The notes under the pieces were generated by a model. That model saw only the letters and a program-made list of their open reading frames with translations, did no database searches and was not told where the DNA came from. From a virus: 42,383 bases of DNA. The DNA lies in the IMG/VR virus record IMGVR_UViG_3300034072_000964, positions 1 through 42,383 of that record, one strand, 5' to 3'. Within the stretch, counting starts at the first letter, position 1. Every line of letters begins with the position of its first letter. A program made the translations under genes and the position numbers. Below, piece after piece: positions 1-42,383 of the stretch.

Positions 1-127
1 AAAACGACTCTGACAGAACGGCGCAAGGCTTCAGTTTGACTTGCAGTAATGTTTAACTGATTAACCGTTATAGATCCGCCGCTTATATGAAGCGAATTAG
101 CGCCCGTAACAGATGGCGCAAAATCAG
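1..127. repeat. Direct terminal repeat, exact copy of 42257..42383 (circular-assembly overlap)
   Basis: Compared base by base: 1-127 is identical to 42257-42383. Confidence 0.97.
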
Positions 128-1442
128 CTGATGTTTGAAACGTACCGCCGACAAGGGCCGGATCTCTATCATCTGTTGCGGAAACAATAGATGTAATTCT
201 TGTTGAGCTTCCAGGGGATGAATAGCGAGTCCATACAGTAACTGTTGAAATCCTTACAGCATTTGCTGGAAGCGCTGGAGCTTTTGCATTCCCCGCGGTT
301 GATCCGATCTGAGCGCCTTTGACAACGTAAATTGATCCTGAATATATATCAACAACAACAAGATCTTTTCTATATCCCATTGCCGTTTGTAAATTAAACC
401 CAACAACAGTAGCTGGAGCAAAGGCCAGATCATTTGCTGGAAATGCTTTATAAGATGAAGCGCCTGGACTCCATAGCGGGGAATCTGCTGGCGTTCCAAA
501 TGGCGCATACTGTAATTCCAACTGGACATTGCCGGAAACGCGCTTTCCCTCTTTGTTGAAAAAAGCAAGCCCTTTTGGGAAAGTTACATCAACGCTGGCT
601 TCATCAATTCCGGACTCTGTTGAGCGGACTGTATAGCCATCAACCTGTTTAAGCAAAATATTATAATCAGTTTGCTTTACGTCATTTGGATATAAAAGAG
701 TCGTTGTGTTTAAATCGCCTTCCAGCTTATGTTCAATTTCAAAATCGCTGAATTGCTCAATTGGAGTTTCGCCAATTTTTAAATCAGTCAATACGCCTTT
801 AGGCCCATAGCCCCATGTAAAGAGCTGGCGGACATATTGATCATTGTCCTGGGTTTCAGTGTATGGCTGAGCGGCCTGAAGCGGGAACATCCTGTTACGG
901 CCAAGGCAAATTGGAACAACGCCATAAAGGTTTATATCGTTTCTAGCACCTTCAATAAATTGAGTCGGGCTTTCCGATGCGTTGGATGAATTGGCATTGC
1001 CAGCATTTGATGGTTTAGGCGGCGGGGCTAGAGCTGATACGGCCAGTTTACCCAGAACGCCAACAGCGCCTGTAACAAGAGATATACCGATTGTTGAAGT
1101 AATGCCCATAGCGCCAGCAAGCGCCGCGCCAGCATACGGGGCCGCGATCAAAACGGCGATTGAAAGAATGCTGGCAATCGGGTTTTTCTTTCCGCCGCCG
1201 CCCTGAGGAACAATATTTATATTTACGGTTGTTCCCAATTTTGGCCTTACAGATCGCCAAAATTCTTGCGGTACTATTTGCCCATTTATCATGGCAACCG
1301 CCCCAACAGCGCCAATTAAGCGCTCTGGGCATATATCATCAATGATCTGTTGGATTGTCGATCCTGGGGCCGCGGCGCGCTGGATACGCGCATTAGAAAA
1401 TGGCAAAGGGGACGCGAAAACAGGAATGGCGGCTTTATTCAT
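1..1442 (-). CDS. Host-specificity / central tail-tip protein (lambda gpJ-like with gpI-like N-terminus), 5' part; the same gene continues at 42256 down to 39571
   Basis: The minus frame with codon starts = 2 mod 3 is open from ATG 1442-1440 to base 1 (hand-checked over 1-240 and 960-1442). The start overlaps the upstream stop as tATGAATAA. The frame is in phase across the junction with ORF 39571..42282. N-terminus: MNKAAIPVFASPLPF...VPQGGGGKKNPIASILSIAVLIAAPYAGAALAGAMG. It is absent from the ORF track because it runs off the window. Confidence 0.75.
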   Translation of the reverse strand, partial: MNKAAIPVFASPLPFSNARIQRAAAPGSTIQQIIDDICPERLIGAVGAVAMINGQIVPQEFWRSVRPKLGTTVNINIVPQGGGGKKNPIASILSIAVLIAAPYAGAALAGAMGITSTIGISLVTGAVGVLGKLAVSALAPPPKPSNAGNANSSNASESPTQFIEGARNDINLYGVVPICLGRNRMFPLQAAQPYTETQDNDQYVRQLFTWGYGPKGVLTDLKIGETPIEQFSDFEIEHKLEGDLNTTTLLYPNDVKQTDYNILLKQVDGYTVRSTESGIDEASVDVTFPKGLAFFNKEGKRVSGNVQLELQYAPFGTPADSPLWSPGASSYKAFPANDLAFAPATVVGFNLQTAMGYRKDLVVVDIYSGSIYVVKGAQIGSTAGNAKAPALPANAVRISTVTVWTRYSSPGSSTRITSIVSATDDRDPALVGGTFQTSADFAPSVTGANSLHISGGSITVNQLNITASQTEALRRSVRVV

Positions 1443-1833
1443 ATCTTGCAAATCCAACAACTTTGTTTTTCCAGCGCAAAGAATCATAGCGCTCAATGAC
1501 AGTATTTATATCCTTGGCGCAATGTATCATAAGCCCTGGCTTAATGACAATTCCGCAATGCATGGGAACGCCGCGCATCTTCAAAATTATGATGTCAAAA
1601 GTAGCCGGAACCTCTGGGGCTTTCCATTTACTATTGCGCTCATTTTGTATCGTTTGCCCCAGAATATCCCTATCGTTGGTACTTTGATATACATCCAAAT
1701 AATCCGGCAATATGATGTTTCTTTCTTTAGGATATGCCAAAAAGGGCAATCCCCAGCAATCTACTCCATCCCAGCCGCGGCCTTTTTCCTTGAACGGGAT
1801 AGGCAAATATTTTTGATACCAATTTTCATTCAT
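1435..1833 (-). CDS. Tail-associated NlpC/P60 peptidase (lambda gpK / GTA g14 position)
   Basis: Track ORF 1435..1938 was trimmed to ATG 1833, just after the upstream TAG at 1835-1837. GRGWDGVDCWGL (Cys) and MHCGIV (His) fit the NlpC/P60 signature. The gene follows the L-like gene. Confidence 0.75.
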   Translation of the reverse strand: MNENWYQKYLPIPFKEKGRGWDGVDCWGLPFLAYPKERNIILPDYLDVYQSTNDRDILGQTIQNERNSKWKAPEVPATFDIIILKMRGVPMHCGIVIKPGLMIHCAKDINTVIERYDSLRWKNKVVGFARYE

Positions 1834-19245: not shown

Positions 19246-19497
19246 TTATTTGTTGAGATTGATAACATTATCTTCAGCAACAGATTTTTTTCTTTTCAAA
19301 TCTGAAATTTCAAAAATTGCTGATGCAATCATATCATCCGGCTCTGAATGAAATTCAACAACGGATTTATGATTTCCTTTTTTATCAAAGATAGCCTGAG
19401 ATTCCCCCAGAGCTTCAGCATACGCAAAATGCGCGGCTTGTCTGCTATCAGTATCAGTTGTTATTTTGCCATTAAGCAAAACTTTATATTTAGCCAT
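19246..19497 (-). CDS. Hypothetical protein
   Basis: 83 aa from ATG 19497, with an AAGGAG RBS. The track start at 19518 lacks an RBS. Confidence 0.55.
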   Translation of the reverse strand: MAKYKVLLNGKITTDTDSRQAAHFAYAEALGESQAIFDKKGNHKSVVEFHSEPDDMIASAIFEISDLKRKKSVAEDNVINLNK

Positions 19498-19511
19498 TTT
19501 GGACTCCTTTT

Positions 19512-19523
19512 GTCGCATTGGTT
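19512..19523 (-). promoter_or_regulatory. Leader 12-mer AACCAATGCGAC (copy 1 of 3)
   Basis: Lies 14 nt upstream of ATG 19497. Near-identical 12-mers are at 30661 and 30816. Confidence 0.5.
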
Positions 19524-19531
19524 ATTTAGGC

Positions 19532-19581
19532 AAGCTAAACCGATTCATAACCTTAATCAACAAAAATAATATTTATTATTT
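19532..19581 (-). promoter_or_regulatory. Promoter-like module A: A/T 20-mer, TTGATT, N17 containing GAATC, TAGCTT
   Basis: The minus strand reads AAATAATAAATATTATTTTT-G-TTGATT-AAGGTTAT-GAATC-GGTT-TAGCTT. It aligns without gaps to 30595..30644. Confidence 0.45.
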
Positions 19582-19968
19582 ATTTTTATAAGGGGAAACT
19601 ATTCCTAAAACTTTAAGCCAGCCATCCATAGGGGATTCAGCATAAACGGTATAGATCCGGCATCCGGCTTTTTCCATCAGCTCATGTAAATCAATTTGTT
19701 CCTGGGAACGCTTAGCAGGTTTCTTTTTTGTTTTATATTTCAGCTCTATCCACAATGGGCCATCTGGCAGGATAAAGCATAAATCAGGCCATCCGGCCAA
19801 AGCGCTCAGGCTTGATTCCATACGGCCCCTTACAGTCTTGCTAGATCCGTTCTGATCGCCATGAACCGTATAGCCATCCTTGCGCGCCATCGAAACAATA
19901 AAGGCTTGAATCAACAGCTCTGACCATTTCAGGGATGCATCAGCGGGATCTTTATTTAAAAACAACAT
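19576..19968 (-). CDS. VRR-NUC domain nuclease
   Basis: 130 aa from ATG 19968, with GAGG 7 nt upstream. GWPDLCFILPDGPLWIELKYK...SQEQIDLHELMEKAGCRIYTVY fits the VRR-NUC PD-(D/E)xK motif. Confidence 0.7.
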   Translation of the reverse strand: MLFLNKDPADASLKWSELLIQAFIVSMARKDGYTVHGDQNGSSKTVRGRMESSLSALAGWPDLCFILPDGPLWIELKYKTKKKPAKRSQEQIDLHELMEKAGCRIYTVYAESPMDGWLKVLGIVSPYKNK

Positions 19969-30045: not shown

Positions 30046-30384
30046 ATGGATTGGAAAAGACTGATGAAGCTAACGATAATTGAAGCGCCATTTGAACAAG
30101 ATGAAAAGCGCCGTAACTGGTATTTAAAGCTATGCATTGAAGATTGCCTGAGTCGGGATGAAGCGCCCTTTTCAGCCGATGGATTTTATAGCCGATTCAT
30201 TGATCAAAAAGTTTTAACTCAGCGGGAAAAAACAATCAGCGCCGGATTGGAATGGGCGCGCTATGCTGATGTTGTCGCATTCTATACCGATCATGGAATC
30301 AGCGAGGCCATGAAAGACCGTATGAAAATCTATCAGGCCCAACATAAAAAGATTGAATGCCGGACTCTATTTCCTGCCAGCTGA
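30046..30384 (+). CDS. Hypothetical protein
   Basis: 112 aa. I see a weak resemblance to nucleoside-deoxyribosyltransferase-like DUFs but cannot verify it. The 3' end overlaps the convergent small gene by 18 nt. Confidence 0.5.
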   Translation: MDWKRLMKLTIIEAPFEQDEKRRNWYLKLCIEDCLSRDEAPFSADGFYSRFIDQKVLTQREKTISAGLEWARYADVVAFYTDHGISEAMKDRMKIYQAQHKKIECRTLFPAS

Positions 30385-30546
30385 TTTTTTCTTTTTCAAT
30401 TTCTTTGCATCTTCAGCCATCAGGGAAACTAGGTAATTCCCCAGATGCGGCTGTTGATTCTTTTTGACAATGCCCAGCTCAAGCGCCCTTGCCTCAGCCT
30501 TTGCCGTTGCGCCATCCGGCGCGTTAAATGATAGTTTTTCAGCCAT
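30367..30546 (-). CDS. Small DNA-binding-like protein, possibly ribbon-helix-helix (below the ORF-track cutoff)
   Basis: Hand translation gives MAEKLSFNAPDGATAKAEARALELGIVKKNQQPHLGNYLVSLMAEDAKKLKKKKSAGRK (59 aa). AAGGA RBS 9 nt upstream. It is the only minus-strand gene inside the plus block. Confidence 0.45.
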   Translation of the reverse strand: MAEKLSFNAPDGATAKAEARALELGIVKKNQQPHLGNYLVSLMAEDAKKLKKKKSAGRK

Positions 30547-30594
30547 TTATATAATCCTTTTCTGATTTAACCGAATCATAGCATAAAACGGCCT

Positions 30595-30644
30595 AAATAA
30601 TAAATATTATTTTTATTGCATCGGTTTTCGAATCATGCTCTATT
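30595..30644 (+). promoter_or_regulatory. Promoter-like module B: A/T 20-mer, TTGCAT, N17 containing GAATC, TCTATT
   Basis: AAATAATAAATATTATTTTT-A-TTGCAT-CGGTTTTC-GAATC-ATGC-TCTATT. The 20-mer is identical to module A, and TTG and GAATC sit in the same register. Confidence 0.45.
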
Positions 30645-30660
30645 GGGGTTACTGAGTAAC

Positions 30661-30672
30661 AACCAATGCGAG
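30661..30672 (+). promoter_or_regulatory. Leader 12-mer AACCAATGCGAG (copy 2 of 3)
   Basis: Lies 17 nt upstream of ATG 30690. Confidence 0.5.
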
Positions 30673-30689
30673 AAATAAAGGAAATAAAC

Positions 30690-30785
30690 ATGAAAAAGAA
30701 CAAATACCGTATAAGAACAATTCTTATAACATCAGCCTTTTGGCTGTTGATTTTTGGCTTCATTAAAAACTGGGGCTATTGCTAA
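30690..30785 (+). CDS. 31-aa basic/hydrophobic micropeptide
   Basis: MKKNKYRIRTILITSAFWLLIFGFIKNWGYC. AAGGAA RBS 7 nt upstream. One predicted TM helix. Followed by the hairpin GGGGC-GCAA-GCCCC. Confidence 0.4.
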   Translation: MKKNKYRIRTILITSAFWLLIFGFIKNWGYC

Positions 30786-30815
30786 TCTGGGGCGGGGCGC
30801 AAGCCCCAAACCTTC

Positions 30816-30827
30816 AACCAATGCGAG
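30816..30827 (+). promoter_or_regulatory. Leader 12-mer AACCAATGCGAG (copy 3 of 3)
   Basis: Lies 9 nt upstream of ATG 30837 and overlaps the GAGGA RBS. Confidence 0.5.
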
Positions 30828-30836
30828 GATAAAAAA

Positions 30837-31112
30837 ATGAATCATTTACAAGTTTGGGAAGCTGAAAAAGCATCTGAAAATAATACAGGCGATAGAGCTT
30901 GGCATTTATTTTGCTCTGAAGTTGAAAAATTGACTAAGCTCGACTCTCTTGATGGCGATCAAGAAAAAGACGGTTATTCTTTAGATGAAGCGTATGATTG
31001 GTTTTCGCGTAAATTCACGGCTGAAGATTATGCGAATCATCTTAATACGCCATTTGATAAAAGAAATTCTTATTTCTTGAATCAGGGGCGCGATTGCCCA
31101 AATTTTGATTAA
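30837..31112 (+). CDS. Hypothetical acidic protein
   Basis: 91 aa. Bracketed by the leader motif and its inverted copy. Confidence 0.55.
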   Translation: MNHLQVWEAEKASENNTGDRAWHLFCSEVEKLTKLDSLDGDQEKDGYSLDEAYDWFSRKFTAEDYANHLNTPFDKRNSYFLNQGRDCPNFD

Positions 31113-31120
31113 GTTTCCTG

Positions 31121-31187
31121 ACTCGCATTGGGAAGGGCGGCGCGGAAGGATGGATTACCAGACTATCCGCGCCGACTCCCAGCGAAT
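31121..31187 (+). other. Long imperfect intergenic hairpin containing the inverted leader motif (CTCGCATTGG, 31122-31131)
   Basis: Three pairings were read by hand: CGGCGCGG (31138-45) with CCGCGCCG (31167-74), TGGGA (31129-33) with TCCCA (31177-81), and TCGC (31123-26) with GCGA (31182-85). No T run follows. Confidence 0.5.
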
Positions 31188-31201
31188 TGAAAGAATGAAA
31201 A

Positions 31202-31489
31202 ATGGATAGCCATATTGAAAGAATACTAAAGCCATCAAAAATTGAAATAACATCAATTCAGGCTGATGAAATACGCCATGCCTTTGATCAAAAAGATAGA
31301 GAGATATTTGAGCTGAAAAGATCAAATGAAGCTCTTGAATCTTTGCGCCCTCATTGGGCTAAGGGATACAGCTCAGACTCTGTTGCCGCGCAAACATCAG
31401 CGGCGGCATTATCCCAGATCTGGAGAATCTTGGAAGTTGACAACCAAACCGCGGCAATTCAAAAATTGAGAGAAATTTTAAAATATTAA
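31202..31489 (+). CDS. Hypothetical protein
   Basis: 95 aa. The stop lies 1 nt before the next ATG. Confidence 0.55.
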   Translation: MDSHIERILKPSKIEITSIQADEIRHAFDQKDREIFELKRSNEALESLRPHWAKGYSSDSVAAQTSAAALSQIWRILEVDNQTAAIQKLREILKY

Positions 31490-38446: not shown

Positions 38447-39574
38447 TTATTGTCCTTTGATTCCGAGAATATACGCTTCCCCTGTAATTGTATTTGCAGA
38501 TGGATAAAGTTTAAGGGCATTAAACGCATTCATATCTGAAACATGATTTGCGCCGCCATCATAATAAAATGCATCAGTTATAGTATGATGCCATGAATAA
38601 ACAGAAAGCGCCGCATATCTGTTGGTATTAGACCAGTTATAAAGGCGCGCAAATCCAGCGCAACATTGATTTGCGCCGCCGCCGCCTGGATAATATGCAA
38701 GATTGCAATAAGCGTTTCCGGCTGAAAACCCGCCAGCATTCCCGATTGAAGTTGATCCAGCTGAGCGGCCATAATTCCTTGAAAGCAAAGAGCTGGTATA
38801 AGCCGCGCCAGCATTTTTAGACCATTCACAGCGAATATCGGCTGGAGATCCTGGGAATGTAAAATTGAAATTCAATTCATAATTATCATATCCGGTAATA
38901 CCGGATAGCGAGAGAATGGATGCGCCCGTTACAGCCGCATATGCAATTGGAACGCCATTCCCGCCAATCTTATTCAGTCTTACTTTTTTAGGGCCGCTGG
39001 CGGATGCGTCATAAGTTAAAACAAAATCATTGGCAGTATCTGGGGCCGTATCCTCAGTTAAAAGATTCAAAACCTTCAACAGATCTGTAATGAGCATTTT
39101 ATTATTTGCGCCGGATGATTCCGAAACATCATTGATCAAAACATAATCGCCAAGAGCAATAGAGGCTTCAGCGGCCATGCCAGCAAAATCAACTGAGCCT
39201 GATGCGCTGTTAAGAGAAACAAGTTTTGCATCAATCTGATTGATGGCGCTTTGGACATTGGAGCCAGTTGTATATGTCCGGCCCGTTGGATCGTATGTAA
39301 TGCCGGATGCGGCTGTTACCAATCCTGAAGGCGTGAAAATATTTGTTGTTGTATTTACCGTTCCAATCGGAACATCAGCTGAGCCTGTAAAGAAATTTAC
39401 GACTCGCGGATTAGTTGTATTGTTTACCCAGATCATTCCCGCCTGAGCGTATGAAGGACGGGATGGGCCGGAATGGGATGAATGAAGCGCATCCCGCCAA
39501 GGCTCAATTTTGCCATTGATAAGGGCCGTTCCAGATATGGGAGATTCTATATTTCCTAAATCAAATTGGCTCAT
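38447..39574 (-). CDS. Putative tail fibre / receptor-binding protein
   Basis: 375 aa, Gly/Ser/Thr/Asn-rich, overlapping the J-like gene end by 4 nt. The N-terminus ..WRDALHSSHSGPSRPSYAQAGMIWVN.. resembles N-termini of alphaproteobacterial phage fibres as I recall them. Confidence 0.5.
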   Translation of the reverse strand: MSQFDLGNIESPISGTALINGKIEPWRDALHSSHSGPSRPSYAQAGMIWVNNTTNPRVVNFFTGSADVPIGTVNTTTNIFTPSGLVTAASGITYDPTGRTYTTGSNVQSAINQIDAKLVSLNSASGSVDFAGMAAEASIALGDYVLINDVSESSGANNKMLITDLLKVLNLLTEDTAPDTANDFVLTYDASASGPKKVRLNKIGGNGVPIAYAAVTGASILSLSGITGYDNYELNFNFTFPGSPADIRCEWSKNAGAAYTSSLLSRNYGRSAGSTSIGNAGGFSAGNAYCNLAYYPGGGGANQCCAGFARLYNWSNTNRYAALSVYSWHHTITDAFYYDGGANHVSDMNAFNALKLYPSANTITGEAYILGIKGQ

Positions 39575-42383
39575 GTTCTTTCTCTTCCGTATCCTGCAAT
39601 AATAATATCAGCCGTTCTGGAAACATAGGTTAGGCTGATCCGATTATAAACTTTTACTGTAAAAGTGCTAGGGCTTTTTTCTGTATATTCCAGTTCATCC
39701 GCCGCATCCCCATCTTGAATTGTTGTTGAAATAGCTGGGATTTCTTTAAACGCCGGAACAAAAGTTAATGCCAATCCCTCAACAGGTATTGTTACATCTT
39801 CGATTTTTTCAATTCTATCCGGCATATCAATGGAAACCGCAAGGCCGGAAACCTTAGGGGATATTCCGTATTGAAGGCTCGTAAGTTTTATCCTGAATTG
39901 AATGGCCCAGAAAGAGATATTCCCAGCGCGAAACTCTGCCCAATCGCTCCAATTATTTAGGGCCGGATCATCCGTTGTTACCCTATATTGAAGTTGTACT
40001 TCCCATGCATCAGATCCAATACCGAAAACATCTGACAAAGAAAAAATATCATCCTCAGATAAAAGATCATTTCCGCCAGCGCCGAAAACATCCGCCATTG
40101 CAAAAATATCAGCAACGGAAAAAATATTATTTATAAAAACGCCATTAGCAATAACAGATGCGCCAACAAAAGATGTAAAGAGCGCGCCCAGATCCAAAGA
40201 GTTTGCAAAATAGTAATACCCTTCAGCCGTATCAACATCATTCAAAACGACTCCGCCATCAACATAAGTTGTATTGGTTTTTGCTCCAGTAAAATCTGGG
40301 GCTTCATCCAAAACGGCAATGGCGTTTAAAAGATTCCCAGGATCATAAGTTATAACCGCCGTTGCATTTGCGGATTCATTCCCAGACAAATCAACAAATT
40401 TAATCAGATAAGTACCTGGCAGAAACGGAGTCGAGAATCTGTTTTCAGTTACCAGATCTTTCAACAGCTGGGCTGTATCCCATGTTGCGCCAATAAATTG
40501 AGAGCTATAACGGACTCTTGCGCCCCTTATATCAATTGCCTGAGAAGGATTCCATTCAAAGATGGCTGTATTGTCGCTTATATCAACAACAAAGCCTGTA
40601 ACATCATCCGGCAATCCTGATGCGCCAATGAATTTATATCCATTGATTTCCAGTGGAAGAGATTGCATAGAGCCGCCAGCGCGATAATAACGGATATGAA
40701 TATCATAAAGCGTATCATCATCAAGACCAGTTAATATGATACGCTCAGGAGTCGACTCTAAAACATTTGCATTATTCAGTTTATCAGTTCCTGAAACCCT
40801 GACTTTTACAGATGTTAAAATATTTTCTTCATTATTATTTTTTAAAGTGATAATGGCGCGGGGCGTGAAAGATCCATCAGAGTTTCTGAGCATAACCGAC
40901 TCATCAGATTGAATCGTTATCAGCTCAGGCGGTACTGGCCTTTTGAAAACAAGCGGCTCAGTAATGCGGCTATTCCAAACTGGAATAGGGGAATTTTCAG
41001 CCGTGAAAATTTCAGGCGCATAATCAATGGCTGTAAGTTTGGCGCTCAGATCATCTTGCGGCTCAATACGGGTTAGAATAACATCGACTTCCCCGCCAGC
41101 CTCAACAATATATCCAAGATCGCCGATAAGCGGCAAAATACTGTTATCATCAATACTTAGCGGCCTATCAAATGGCGTTGTAAAAACAAAAGTTTTCGTT
41201 TCGCCAACAGATGTATTCAGCTGTTTATACATTTGGCTCCCATCAGATAATCTAAGCCTCATATAAAATGTTGATGCGCTGGGGATTGCAACCGTATCAT
41301 CAAAAGTAATGCTGGTAATCTTGCCAGAGCCATCAACAGCGAAAGATTTAATCCGGCCATCACCAACTGCAATGAGCGGAATATCATGGGCCAGCTTTAC
41401 ACGATCGCCACGAATGGCAACAAGGTTTTCAAAATCCATTACAACTGAATGAGACTCAGGGCGCAAAACAATTGCGGCGAAATGGCGCTTGCCTGTTTTG
41501 AAAGCAAAATCAGAATTGGTACAATGCATCAGTTCCAAAACTTCAAAATCTGTTGCGGGAATCAGGCCATTAGATCCATCCTCATTATATCCATCCCTGT
41601 AAACAATTCTTTCGTCTTGTTGAAATCCTTTTTCTTCATTTCTGAATTGGACTCTCAAGGCATGGGGAAGATCCGCATAAATCAATTCAGCGGAATAATC
41701 GCGGCTGTTGCGCGGGGTTATGATTTGAACAATGTCATTTTTTATTCTATCAATCGCAACCGATCTTTTCCCATCAACAATAGCGGGGCTTGCGCTTCCC
41801 GCGCTGGCTATATCCTGCAAAACATCCTCAAGGGAAGTTTCATAATCTATAACCCTGTTATAAGAATATCCCTGTTGTTCGCAATGGATATGCCAATCCT
41901 CAAGGCCAGCAATATCAATTTTTGAATCAGCCAGTGGCTTTGCATTGGCCTCCCCCTGCAAAGCGTAACGATATATGGAAGCCGGATTTGAAGTAACTCT
42001 TTCTTCCCATAGGCCAGTATCGCTGTTGTAATCCGGAATTACCAAAGAGAAAATTCCATTCAACTGATCAAGAGCGCCGTTCAATTGATCTGTTGCTTTT
42101 ATGCGGATGGCAGTACCGTTTAAATTTGCCAGCTTAACAGGCGCGCCGTATTTTACGCTCCTGATCGCTGTAAAATAAACATCATTCAAAAATTGATCTG
42201 AATCGTTATCTAACGATAAGCGGCGGATTCTGAAATCATATTTCCCGTTTGTTGGGAAAACGACTCTGACAGAACGGCGCAAGGCTTCAGTTTGACTTGC
42301 AGTAATGTTTAACTGATTAACCGTTATAGATCCGCCGCTTATATGAAGCGAATTAGCGCCCGTAACAGATGGCGCAAAATCAG
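39571..42383 (-). CDS. Host-specificity / central tail-tip protein J-like, 3' part (same gene as 1..1442)
   Basis: The frame is open to the window end. The M of track ORF 39571..42282 is an internal TTG (Leu). Reconstructed gene: 1442..1 plus 42256..39571, or 4128 nt and 1375 aa. Size and position after the M/L/K-like genes fit gpJ / GTA g15. Confidence 0.75.
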   Translation of the reverse strand, partial: DFAPSVTGANSLHISGGSITVNQLNITASQTEALRRSVRVVFPTNGKYDFRIRRLSLDNDSDQFLNDVYFTAIRSVKYGAPVKLANLNGTAIRIKATDQLNGALDQLNGIFSLVIPDYNSDTGLWEERVTSNPASIYRYALQGEANAKPLADSKIDIAGLEDWHIHCEQQGYSYNRVIDYETSLEDVLQDIASAGSASPAIVDGKRSVAIDRIKNDIVQIITPRNSRDYSAELIYADLPHALRVQFRNEEKGFQQDERIVYRDGYNEDGSNGLIPATDFEVLELMHCTNSDFAFKTGKRHFAAIVLRPESHSVVMDFENLVAIRGDRVKLAHDIPLIAVGDGRIKSFAVDGSGKITSITFDDTVAIPSASTFYMRLRLSDGSQMYKQLNTSVGETKTFVFTTPFDRPLSIDDNSILPLIGDLGYIVEAGGEVDVILTRIEPQDDLSAKLTAIDYAPEIFTAENSPIPVWNSRITEPLVFKRPVPPELITIQSDESVMLRNSDGSFTPRAIITLKNNNEENILTSVKVRVSGTDKLNNANVLESTPERIILTGLDDDTLYDIHIRYYRAGGSMQSLPLEINGYKFIGASGLPDDVTGFVVDISDNTAIFEWNPSQAIDIRGARVRYSSQFIGATWDTAQLLKDLVTENRFSTPFLPGTYLIKFVDLSGNESANATAVITYDPGNLLNAIAVLDEAPDFTGAKTNTTYVDGGVVLNDVDTAEGYYYFANSLDLGALFTSFVGASVIANGVFINNIFSVADIFAMADVFGAGGNDLLSEDDIFSLSDVFGIGSDAWEVQLQYRVTTDDPALNNWSDWAEFRAGNISFWAIQFRIKLTSLQYGISPKVSGLAVSIDMPDRIEKIEDVTIPVEGLALTFVPAFKEIPAISTTIQDGDAADELEYTEKSPSTFTVKVYNRISLTYVSRTADIIIAGYGRERT
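42257..42383. repeat. Direct terminal repeat, exact copy of 1..127
   Basis: Identical base for base to 1-127. Confidence 0.97.

What the first reader, a model, noticed from the sequence alone, without database searches (positions are those of the whole stretch)
30816..31131. AACCAATGCGAG leader motif in three 5' UTRs, plus an inverted copy bracketing one gene
The 12-mer AACCAATGCGA(G/C) lies 14, 17 and 9 nt upstream of three start codons: 19497 on the minus strand, and 30690 and 30837 on the plus strand. In each case it is just 5' of or overlapping the Shine-Dalgarno sequence.

The 10-nt core CCAATGCGAG also occurs inverted (CTCGCATTGG, 31122-31131), 9 nt after the stop of the 30837-31112 gene. 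That mRNA segment therefore carries perfectly complementary 10-mers at its two ends.

A given 10-mer is expected only ~0.08 times on both strands of a genome this size. Possible roles are a translational operator for a phage RNA-binding protein, a 5'-3' pairing switch that occludes the RBS, a processing site, or the ends of a small gene cassette.
Basis: seen in the sequence. Interest (0 to 1): 0.62.

Follow-up and report, generated by a model that had tools for sequence, protein, structure and literature searches.

The report
Conserved leader motif flanking swappable phage genes
A 12-letter word sits just ahead of the ribosome-binding sites of three genes (plus a worn fourth copy) in this phage of alphaproteobacteria. 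It is kept letter for letter in the one close relative although the small genes next to it have been replaced, so it is a real lineage-specific regulatory 'socket' whose molecular partner is still unknown.

Summary
AACCAATGCGA(G/C) lies 17, 9 and 14 nt 5' of the start codons at 30690, 30837 (+) and 19497 (-). CTCGCATTGG lies 9 nt after the stop of the 30837-31112 gene. The placement is significant, however: an 11-mer shared by three of 73 leaders occurred in 8 of 2000 shuffles.

The one close relative (IMG/VR 3300020045_007163, 66-78% nt identity in genes) keeps all four copies at the same sites, inside 46-80-nt islands that are 82-87% identical. The genes between the islands are unrelated in the two phages. 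More distant relatives (about 1.7 Mb) lack the word.

The inverted copy forms the foot of a stable hairpin. Five of its ten upper-stem pairs changed on both sides between the two phages. The other foot strand, TCCCAGCGA, is a degenerate fourth sense copy 15-16 nt before the next start codon.

Best reading: a strand-specific mRNA leader element inside conserved 'sockets' for exchangeable small genes. This resembles the PeSL cassettes of T4-type phages, but most copies lack a promoter. The trans-acting partner is unknown.

Earlier notes from this scan describe hairpin-plus-leader cassettes in other phages. The sequencing-run finder was closed.

The parts
19512..19523 (-). Copy m3, AACCAATGCGAC, 14 nt 5' of the ATG at 19497. 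That ATG starts the first gene after the late-operon promoter.
   Evidence: The identical word is kept in G001 12 nt before the orthologous ATG.
19489..19534 (-). Leader island around m3: motif, Shine-Dalgarno AAGGAG, ATG and first codons.
   Evidence: A separate blastn match of 46 nt at 85% identity to G001. The protein behind it is only 27.5% identical.
19530..19582 (-). Promoter-like module: AT-rich block, TTGATT, a GAATC site in the spacer, TAGCTT.
Evidence: In G001 the same type of module lies about 25 nt further from the motif.
30594..30645 (+). Second copy of the promoter-like module: AATAATAAATATTATTTTT, TTGCAT, a GAATC site, TCTATT.
30648..30660 (+). Small hairpin GTTAC-TGA-GTAAC directly 5' of m1.
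   Evidence: -2.9 kcal/mol, not better than shuffles. The sequence TTACTGAGTAAC is identical in G001.
30661..30672 (+). Copy m1, AACCAATGCGAG, 17 nt 5' of the ATG at 30690.
   Evidence: G001 has AACCAATGCGAA 16 nt before an unrelated 41-aa gene.
30690..30785 (+). Gene A, a 31-aa hydrophobic peptide: variable cassette gene.
   Evidence: No homologue in G001.
30794..30807 (+). Hairpin 1, GGGGC-GCAA-GCCCC (GNRA tetraloop), which starts 8 nt after the stop codon of gene A.
   Evidence: G001 has the same stem with loop GGAA.
30811..30827 (+). CCTTC-AA followed by copy m2, AACCAATGCGAG, 9 nt 5' of the ATG at 30837. The Shine-Dalgarno GAGGA overlaps the end of the motif.
   Evidence: The island 30783-30844 is 87% identical to G001.
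30837..31112 (+). Gene B, 91 aa: variable cassette gene.
   Evidence: No homologue in G001 or in IMG/VR. No Pfam match.
31122..31136 (+). Inverted copy CTCGCATTGG plus GAAGG. It is the 5' strand of the foot of hairpin 2.
   Evidence: G001 has ACCGCATTGGGAAGG.
31123..31185 (+). Hairpin 2: foot UCGC-AU-UGGGA / UCCCA-GCGA, with a G+C-rich upper stem at 31138-31174.
   Evidence: In a 116-nt local fold: -42.4 kcal/mol, z -4.6; G001 -32.6 kcal/mol, z -3.0. Five of ten upper-stem pairs changed on both sides.
31177..31185 (+). Copy m4, TCCCAGCGA, a degenerate sense copy 16 nt 5' of the ATG at 31202. It is the 3' strand of the hairpin foot.
   Evidence: Identical in G001, 15 nt before a 26-aa ORF.
31202..31489 (+). 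Gene C, 95 aa: variable cassette gene.
   Evidence: phrog_23162. No homologue in G001. 73% nt identity to a hypothetical gene of Brucella Tb-group phages.
30367..30546 (-). 59-aa ribbon-helix-helix-like gene that diverges from the m1 promoter. It is a possible DNA-binding candidate for one rival reading.
   Evidence: no Pfam match. Its domain is 47-49% identical to the C-terminus of a GIY-YIG fusion protein in G001.

Best explanation
AACCAATGCGA(G/C/A) is the invariant core of a small set of conserved, strand-specific leader modules. Each module ends in a Shine-Dalgarno site and a start codon.

Two modules follow the phage's two look-alike GANTC-bearing promoters. These head the roughly 27-kb structural operon and a second rightward operon that ends in the phage's gcrA gene. 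Two further modules follow conserved hairpins between the first three small genes of that second operon; one of these carries only the degenerate copy CCCAGCGA.

Shown: the modules are fixed 'sockets'. The only close relative keeps them, while the genes plugged in between are unrelated.

Inferred: the word acts in cis on the mRNA as a single-stranded recognition site inside the ribosome-loading region, 8-17 nt 5' of the start codon. A trans-acting factor, not yet identified, would bind there and set the translation or stability of those cistrons together.

Inferred: the single inverted copy is the 5' strand at the foot of a covarying intercistronic hairpin that sequesters the fourth copy. It can pair instead with copy m2 or m1, which would give a possible switch.

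Inferred: the 46-80-nt islands also offer enough homology for recombination between co-infecting relatives, which would explain the gene exchanges.
For: Position
- The copies lie 17/9/14 nt from the ATGs in the window and 16/8/12 nt in G001, always in the sense direction.
- The distance from the promoter-like -10 hexamer varies: 8 and 16 nt in the window, about 33 nt for m3 in G001. The word is therefore tied to the start codon, not to the promoter.

Conservation
- The 8-nt core CCAATGCG is unchanged in all eight instances across two genomes whose genes are 66-78% identical.
- The islands appear as separate matches at 82-87% identity.
- Genes A, B and C have no homologue in G001, and the reverse also holds.
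- The m3 leader is 85% identical, while the protein behind it is 27.5% identical.

Specificity
- Paralogous copies share only the 12-mer, with sharp edges.
- There is no copy inside coding sequence in the window.
- The leader-set test gave 8 of 2000 shuffles.

RNA-level selection in this region
- Hairpin 2 folds well beyond shuffles (z -4.6 and -3.0).
- Five of ten upper-stem pairs changed on both sides.
- The loop of hairpin 1 stays GNRA (GCAA versus GGAA).
- Copies m1-m3 are predicted unpaired locally.
- The inverted copy pairs with m4 locally, or with m2/m1 in long folds.
Against: - Only one informative relative exists, so conservation rests on a single comparison.
- No RNA-binding protein, NusG-like factor or other candidate partner was found in the phage.
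- No transcript data could be obtained.
- A DNA-level role is not excluded.
- The word is conserved no better than its immediate flanks within each orthologous island. Whole-island selection, or recent recombination, could therefore explain the orthologous conservation without any special role for the 12-mer.
- Other genes in the same operon were also exchanged without conserved islands, so the islands are not needed for exchange.
- The motif/anti-motif pair shows no compensatory change. G001's two differences only shorten the helix.
Confidence: 0.5

Rival explanations
1. The word is a loading site for a transcription-elongation or antitermination factor. It would work like ops for RfaH or nut for lambda N: read in the non-template strand or in the nascent RNA just after the two late-type promoters, and again after each internal hairpin. 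This would let RNA polymerase read through hairpins 1 and 2 and transcribe the long structural operon.
For: - It is a 12-nt, sense-strand-only element in operon leaders, at a variable distance from the promoter.
- One copy heads a roughly 27-kb operon.
- Copies m2 and m4 follow hairpins.
- Hairpin 1 is a 5-bp stem with a GNRA loop, as in boxB-type hairpins.
- All RfaH-controlled operons carry a 12-nt ops in their leaders, and RfaH also recruits ribosomes (PMC5995543).
Against: - The word matches ops GGCGGTAGCGTG at only 5 of 12 positions (my comparison with the sequence quoted).
- The phage has no NusG/RfaH-like gene.
- Neither hairpin is followed by a U tract, so neither looks like an intrinsic terminator.
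- The order of hairpin and linear element is the reverse of lambda nut.
- The constant closeness to start codons is not required by this model.
Confidence: 0.15
2. The word is a double-stranded DNA operator for a phage or host DNA-binding protein, for example the neighbouring ribbon-helix-helix-like protein. The protein would sit just downstream of the two late-type promoters and around gene B and block transcription.
For: - The 8-bp core is present in both orientations.
- Four of the five sites cluster within 520 bp next to a divergently transcribed small ribbon-helix-helix-like gene whose domain is kept in G001.
- Two sites lie downstream of similar promoters.
Against: - The three exact copies and the degenerate copy all face the same way as their gene and keep their distance to the start codon, not to the promoter.
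- The sites are single and asymmetric, without the tandem or palindromic sub-sites usual for such repressors.
- The inverted copy is accounted for by the hairpin foot.
- No Pfam match supports the DNA-binding assignment of the 59-aa protein.
Confidence: 0.12
3. The word has no sequence-specific function. It would be a remnant of an ancestral leader copied along with cassettes, and the islands are conserved only because recent recombination between relatives homogenised them, as with PeSL-type linker sequences.
For: - Whole islands, not just the word, are conserved.
- Unrelated genes sit between the islands.
- The phage carries its own recombination genes: a Sak4-like annealase and a Cas4-type exonuclease.
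- G001 has a GIY-YIG nuclease gene right next to the array.
- PeSLs show that regulatory linkers can mediate such shuffling (PMC2839356).
Against: - Within one genome the paralogous leaders share exactly the 12-mer and nothing else. Drift from a common ancestor is unlikely to produce that pattern without selection on the word.
- The m3 leader is conserved although its gene has diverged to 27.5% identity in place rather than being swapped.
- The core is unchanged eight times out of eight.
Confidence: 0.13
4. The main role is a 5'-3' cyclisation switch of the gene B cistron. The 30816 copy and the inverted copy pair, occlude the Shine-Dalgarno site of gene B and create a double-stranded target for an RNase. 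The other copies would be incidental.
For: - In the window there are 15 complementary bases (5 + 10, with a 2-nt bulge), and they cover the GAG of GAGGA.
- This pairing dominates the predicted ensemble: 6.7 of 10 expected pairs in the full transcript, and 10 of 10 in a transcript starting after hairpin 1.
- The extra CCTTC/GAAGG match is unlikely by chance.
Against: - In G001 the helix shrinks to 8 + 4 bp with no compensating change.
- Folding in G001 pairs the inverted copy with m1, or with m4 in the local hairpin, and not with m2.
- The model does not explain m1, m3 or m4.
- The inverted copy has a conserved local partner.
Confidence: 0.08

Closest known systems
PeSL (promoter-early stem-loop) cassettes of T4-type phages (Arbiol et al. 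2010, PMC2839356; Comeau et al. 2014, PMC4122927)
   Same: - Short conserved intergenic modules running from the stop codon of one gene, through a G/C-tract stem-loop, to the Shine-Dalgarno site and start codon of the next.
- They sit in front of small genes of unknown function in a variable region.
- Replacements between close relatives are bounded by the modules.
- Two of the modules here also carry an AT-rich block and a sigma-70-type promoter.
   Different: - Only 4-5 modules per genome, against about 50.
- Copies within a genome share just 12 nt, too little for the copy-to-copy recombination shown for PeSLs.
- The internal modules (m2, m4) have no recognisable promoter.
- One copy is inverted and forms the foot of a hairpin.
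- The host is an alphaproteobacterium and the phage is a siphovirus.
ops element / RfaH (Zuber et al. 2018, PMC5995543)
   Same: A 12-nt, orientation-specific signal in the leaders of long accessory operons, linked to both transcription and ribosome recruitment.
   Different: The sequence is unrelated (5 of 12 positions). The phage has no NusG paralogue. The genes here have ordinary Shine-Dalgarno sites.
Base pairing between 5' and 3' untranslated regions that masks the ribosome-binding site (Staphylococcus aureus icaR; fold-back inhibition of hok mRNA).
   Same: Complementary stretches at the ribosome-binding region and just after the stop codon of the same cistron. Long-range pairing is predicted in the window.
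   Different: The pairing is weaker in the relative and does not covary. The 3' stretch has a local partner. The 5' stretch also occurs at three other cistrons.
Translational operators of phage RNA-binding repressors such as T4 RegA (from my own knowledge)
   Same: A short, unstructured word next to the ribosome-binding site of several otherwise unrelated phage mRNAs.
   Different: No repressor gene was identified. The word lies 5' of the Shine-Dalgarno site and does not overlap the start codon.
Hairpin-plus-leader cassettes noted earlier in this scan in Bacteroidales phages and T1-like phages (e1-3603467, e1-3671740, e1-273890)
   Same: The same layout of stop codon, hairpin, conserved leader and start codon, with genes gained or swapped at the spacer. 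Some of those leaders also contain ACCAAT. In phage T1 I confirmed AACCAAT directly 5' of three Shine-Dalgarno sites.
   Different: Those are many-copy systems in unrelated hosts. The T1 word CCAATCAGRRG is also scattered through coding sequence on both strands. No common descent or common mechanism is shown.

Membership tests
PeSL cassettes (T4-type phages) | A sigma-70-type early promoter in each cassette. | tested here: not met
   Promoter-like hexamers occur only upstream of m1 and m3. No conserved -35/-10 pair was found in the m2 or anti/m4 islands (and by eye).
PeSL cassettes (T4-type phages) | A stable stem-loop within the cassette. | tested here: met
   Hairpin 1 is a conserved G/C stem, and hairpin 2 has z -4.6/-3.0 with compensatory changes. 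The hairpin at m1 is weak, and m3 has none that is conserved.
PeSL cassettes (T4-type phages) | Insertions and replacements between close relatives are bounded by the cassettes. | tested here: met
PeSL cassettes (T4-type phages) | Many similar copies per genome that can recombine with each other. | tested here: not met
   There are 3 exact or near-exact copies, 1 inverted and 1 degenerate. The paralogues share only 12 nt.
ops / RfaH | Match to the ops consensus GGCGGTAGCGTG. | tested here: not met
   5 of 12 positions match, compared with the sequence quoted in PMC5995543.
ops / RfaH | A specialised NusG paralogue is available. | tested here: inconclusive
   The phage has none. The host is unknown.
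lambda-type nut site | boxA followed by a boxB hairpin, plus an N-type protein. | tested here: not met
   Only m2 has a GNRA hairpin, and that hairpin lies 5' of the linear element. No N-like gene was recognised. Rfam found nothing in the window.
5'-3' UTR pairing switches | Conserved or covarying complementarity between the ribosome-binding region and the 3' untranslated region of the same cistron. | tested here: inconclusive
   15 bp in the window and 8 + 4 bp in G001, with no compensatory change.
Integron-type cassettes (attC) | A recombinase gene, and crossover at the conserved core site. | tested here: not met
   No integrase turned up among the proteins scanned. The exchange junctions lie at the island edges, not at the 12-mer.
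Any Rfam family | A match to a curated covariance model. | tested here: not met
   There were 0 matches at E <= 1 over the whole window.

The most novel reading that the evidence does not exclude
The word and its single complementary copy form a phage-specific RNA control circuit. One anti-motif, normally locked in the foot of hairpin 2 with the degenerate fourth copy, is released by translation of gene B or by RNase cleavage. It then pairs with the leaders of the other motif-bearing cistrons, including in trans the first gene of the late operon. Expression of the exchangeable accessory genes and the onset of structural gene expression would thus be coupled through one 10-nt RNA-RNA code.
Probability: 0.12. 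Interest if true: 0.65.

Novelty: new variant of a known kind. Interest (0 to 1): 0.38.

Why it matters
Phage genomes evolve largely by swapping small accessory genes, but outside the T4-type phages little is known about which sequences keep a newly arrived gene expressed. Here a siphovirus of alphaproteobacteria keeps a few short leader modules fixed while the genes behind them change. The modules share a word that also heads the late operon.

If the word proves to be a binding site for a factor or for the complementary RNA stretch, it would give a compact, portable expression signal for alphaproteobacterial systems. It would also be an example of coordinated post-transcriptional control in a phage that additionally carries its own GcrA and GANTC-bearing promoters.

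If it is only a linker, it is still a clean example of socket-type modular exchange. Either way the system is so far known from two genomes only.

Tried and rejected
- **Chance.** Rejected because of the placement and the orthologous conservation.
- **Known RNA family.** The Rfam scan of the whole window at E <= 1 found nothing.
- **Pairing with 16S rRNA (translational enhancer).** Against the 16S rRNA of Roseicella, used as a stand-in alphaproteobacterium, the longest complementary run was 7 nt, and 351 of 500 shuffled words reached that.
- **Presence in wider relatives.** There is no copy of ACCAATGCGA or CCAATGCGAG in 1.15 Mb around helicase homologues, and only chance hits in 0.55 Mb around homologues of the 172-aa gene. 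Three fuller genomes of distant relatives gave background hits only. The next-nearest relative has no analogous repeated leader word.
- **Pattern scans of IMG/VR.** A 14-base pattern returned only random hits plus the window itself. The island-specific patterns returned G001 plus chance hits in G+C-rich coding sequence.
- **Site-specific recombination core.** Rejected because the homology between the two phages continues past the word, through the Shine-Dalgarno site and the first codons.
- **Upstream start codon.** The ATG inside the word is in frame with the gene in only 3 of 6 cases and has no Shine-Dalgarno site.
- **Other readings checked by eye.** Sigma-54, CtrA (TTAA-N7-TTAA), IHF and DnaA boxes, a sigma-dependent pause, and an antisense promoter on the opposite strand. 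None fits all copies.
- **Further complementary copies.** A search allowing G-U pairs found none in a sense transcript.

Full report
**What the window is.** The window is a complete 42.3-kb phage genome with a 127-bp terminal repeat. It is a siphovirus: terminase, portal, HK97-type capsid, tape measure and J-type tail protein are all present. It encodes a GcrA homologue (PF07750, E 9e-13) and a DNA methyltransferase. Its nearest cellular relative is a prophage-like region of Roseicella. The host is therefore very probably an alphaproteobacterium. No RNA polymerase or NusG-like gene was found, so the phage uses host transcription.

**The observation.**
- AACCAATGCGAG is at 30661-30672 and 30816-30827 (+).
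- AACCAATGCGAC is at 19512-19523 (-).
- These end 17, 9 and 14 nt before the ATGs at 30690, 30837 and 19497.
- CTCGCATTGG is at 31122-31131, 9 nt after the TAA of the 30837-31112 gene.

The genome holds 946 distinct 10-mers with three or more copies, against about 614 in Markov-3 shuffles. The word is not enriched once mismatches are allowed.

Placement is the real signal. The 8-nt core CCAATGCG has no copy in coding sequence. Among 73 40-nt leaders, an 11-mer shared by three or more appeared in only 8 of 2000 shuffles.

**The relative.** One close relative exists in the collections searched: IMG/VR 3300020045_007163, here called G001. It is syntenic, with 66-78% nucleotide identity in genes and 85% protein identity in the helicase. 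The next relatives are at 61% helicase identity or less.

G001 keeps all four copies at the same sites:
- m1 is AACCAATGCGAA.
- m2 is AACCAATGCGAG.
- m3 is AACCAATGCGAC.
- The inverted copy is ACCGCATTGG.

The distances to the ATGs are 16, 8 and 12 nt. The copies lie in short islands that blastn reports as separate matches at 82-87% identity: 19489-19534, 30609-30688 and 30783-30844. A fourth island lies around 31111-31201.

The genes between the islands are unrelated in the two phages. Genes A, B and C of the window have no homologue in G001, and the reverse also holds. The gene behind m3 is homologous but only 27.5% identical.

The homology continues through the Shine-Dalgarno site and into the first codons (ATGAATCA at m2). 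On the other side it starts at or just before stop codons. The exchanges therefore happened at the island edges, not at the 12-mer.

About 1.7 Mb of more distant relatives contains no copy in a comparable setting. Island-specific pattern scans of IMG/VR found only G001. The word is specific to this lineage.

**Anatomy.** Copies m1 and m3 lie downstream of two similar promoter-like modules: an AT-rich block, TTGnnn, a GAATC site in the spacer and a -10-like hexamer. An earlier follow-up of this scan (e1-3438938) already treated these modules.

The distance from the -10 hexamer to the word is 8 nt at m3 and 16 nt at m1 in the window, but about 33 nt at m3 in G001. The distance to the start codon changes by only 1-2 nt. 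The word is therefore tied to the start of the cistron, not to the promoter.

Copy m2 has no promoter. It follows a conserved GGGGC-GNRA-GCCCC hairpin that starts 8 nt after the stop codon of gene A.

**The inverted copy.** It is the 5' strand of the foot of a large hairpin at 31123-31185. The foot pairs UCGC-AU-UGGGA with UCCCA-GCGA.
- The fold is far more stable than shuffles in both phages (z -4.6 and -3.0).
- Five of the ten pairs of its upper stem changed on both sides between the phages. This is direct evidence that a fold, not just a sequence, is under selection.
- The 3' foot strand, TCCCAGCGA, is a degenerate sense copy of the word. It lies 16 nt (window) or 15 nt (G001) before the next start codon.

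The operon that starts at 30.6 kb thus reads: promoter, m1, gene A, hairpin 1, m2, gene B, anti-motif, hairpin 2, m4, gene C.

The anti-motif is also complementary to m2 over 15 bases in the window (CCUUC + CCAAUGCGAG, 2-nt bulge). That pairing dominates the predicted ensemble there. In G001 only 8 + 4 bp remain and no change compensates. Folding there prefers m1 or the local hairpin.

**Interpretation.** Five features point to a cis-acting element of the mRNA in the ribosome-loading region:
- Every copy faces the same way as its gene.
- The copies keep a fixed closeness to start codons.
- Their position is independent of the promoter.
- They are locally unpaired.
- Selection on RNA folds in the same spacers is demonstrated.

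I take this as the most likely role (confidence 0.5). The partner, whether protein or the complementary RNA, is unidentified. No RNA-binding domain was found in the proteins scanned.

That the modules act as fixed sockets around exchangeable genes is shown by the comparison. That they serve as recombination patches is inference. It is weakened by the fact that other genes of the operon were exchanged without such islands.

The rivals are:
- an ops- or nut-like loading site for an elongation factor (0.15);
- a DNA operator (0.12);
- a functionless remnant kept by recombination (0.13);
- a dedicated 5'-3' switch of gene B (0.08).

Complementarity to 16S rRNA was tested and rejected. Rfam has no match.

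**Comparison with what is known.** The closest described system is the PeSL cassette of T4-type phages (PMC2839356, PMC4122927). It has the same layout from stop codon through stem-loop to Shine-Dalgarno site and start codon, the same association with small variable genes, and the same bounding of replacements.

This is not a PeSL in the strict sense. Most copies lack a promoter, there are few copies, and the paralogues share only 12 nt.

It resembles ops in being a 12-nt sense-strand leader signal (PMC5995543), but the sequence and the factor do not match.

Earlier notes of this scan report hairpin-plus-leader cassettes, some with an ACCAAT box, in Bacteroidales and T1-like phages. I confirmed only that phage T1 has AACCAAT directly 5' of three Shine-Dalgarno sites, and that its word CCAATCAGRRG is over-represented genome-wide. 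No common mechanism follows from that.

**Verdict.** This is a real, lineage-specific leader motif inside conserved sockets for exchangeable genes. It is a new variant of a known kind and of moderate interest.

Noticed in passing
L122:4474-4902 (-) and window 30367-30546 (-): In G001 the ribbon-helix-helix-like domain is the C-terminus of a 142-aa protein with a GIY-YIG nuclease N-terminus. That looks like a homing endonuclease, and it sits right next to the variable gene array. The window keeps only the 59-aa DNA-binding-like part, perhaps a remnant.
   Followed up: partly
window 31110-31121: The TAA of gene B is followed in frame by GTT TCC TGA. G001's unrelated gene ends ...GTT TCC TAA at the same place. 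The island therefore begins with the last two codons and the stop of an older gene, which marks the exchange junction.
   Followed up: partly
window 30666, 30821, 19518 (-): The word contains an ATG (CCA ATG CGA). It is in frame with the downstream gene in 3 of 6 cases across the two phages. In the others it opens a 3- to 11-codon mini-ORF. It has no Shine-Dalgarno site, so it is probably not used.
   Followed up: partly
L300 (phage T1, AY216660): 1514, 4929, 18854, 47046 (-) and others: Phage T1 has its own word, CCAATCAGRRG, with 14 copies against 2.4 expected. Several copies are fused to Shine-Dalgarno sites and others lie inside genes on either strand. This is unexplained and partly overlaps the AACCAAT of the present motif.
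   Followed up: partly
window 31202-31489: Gene C (95 aa, phrog_23162) shares about 73% nucleotide identity over 116 nt with a hypothetical gene of the Brucella Tb/Pr/Wb phage group. This points to gene traffic among alphaproteobacterial phages.
   Followed up: no
window 1-127 and 42257-42383; 39571-42383 with 1-1496 (-): There is an exact 127-bp terminal repeat. The J-type tail gene runs across the window ends, so the 903-aa and 498-aa ORFs are one gene of roughly 1390 aa.
   Followed up: no
window 30794-30807; L122:5351-5364: The loop of hairpin 1 differs between the phages (GCAA versus GGAA), but both are GNRA tetraloops on an unchanged 5-bp G/C stem.
   Followed up: partly
L281/L282 (Logan SRR10854512 contig, 42286 bp): A second public assembly carries genes B and C with identical protein sequences and the same gene order downstream.
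   Followed up: no
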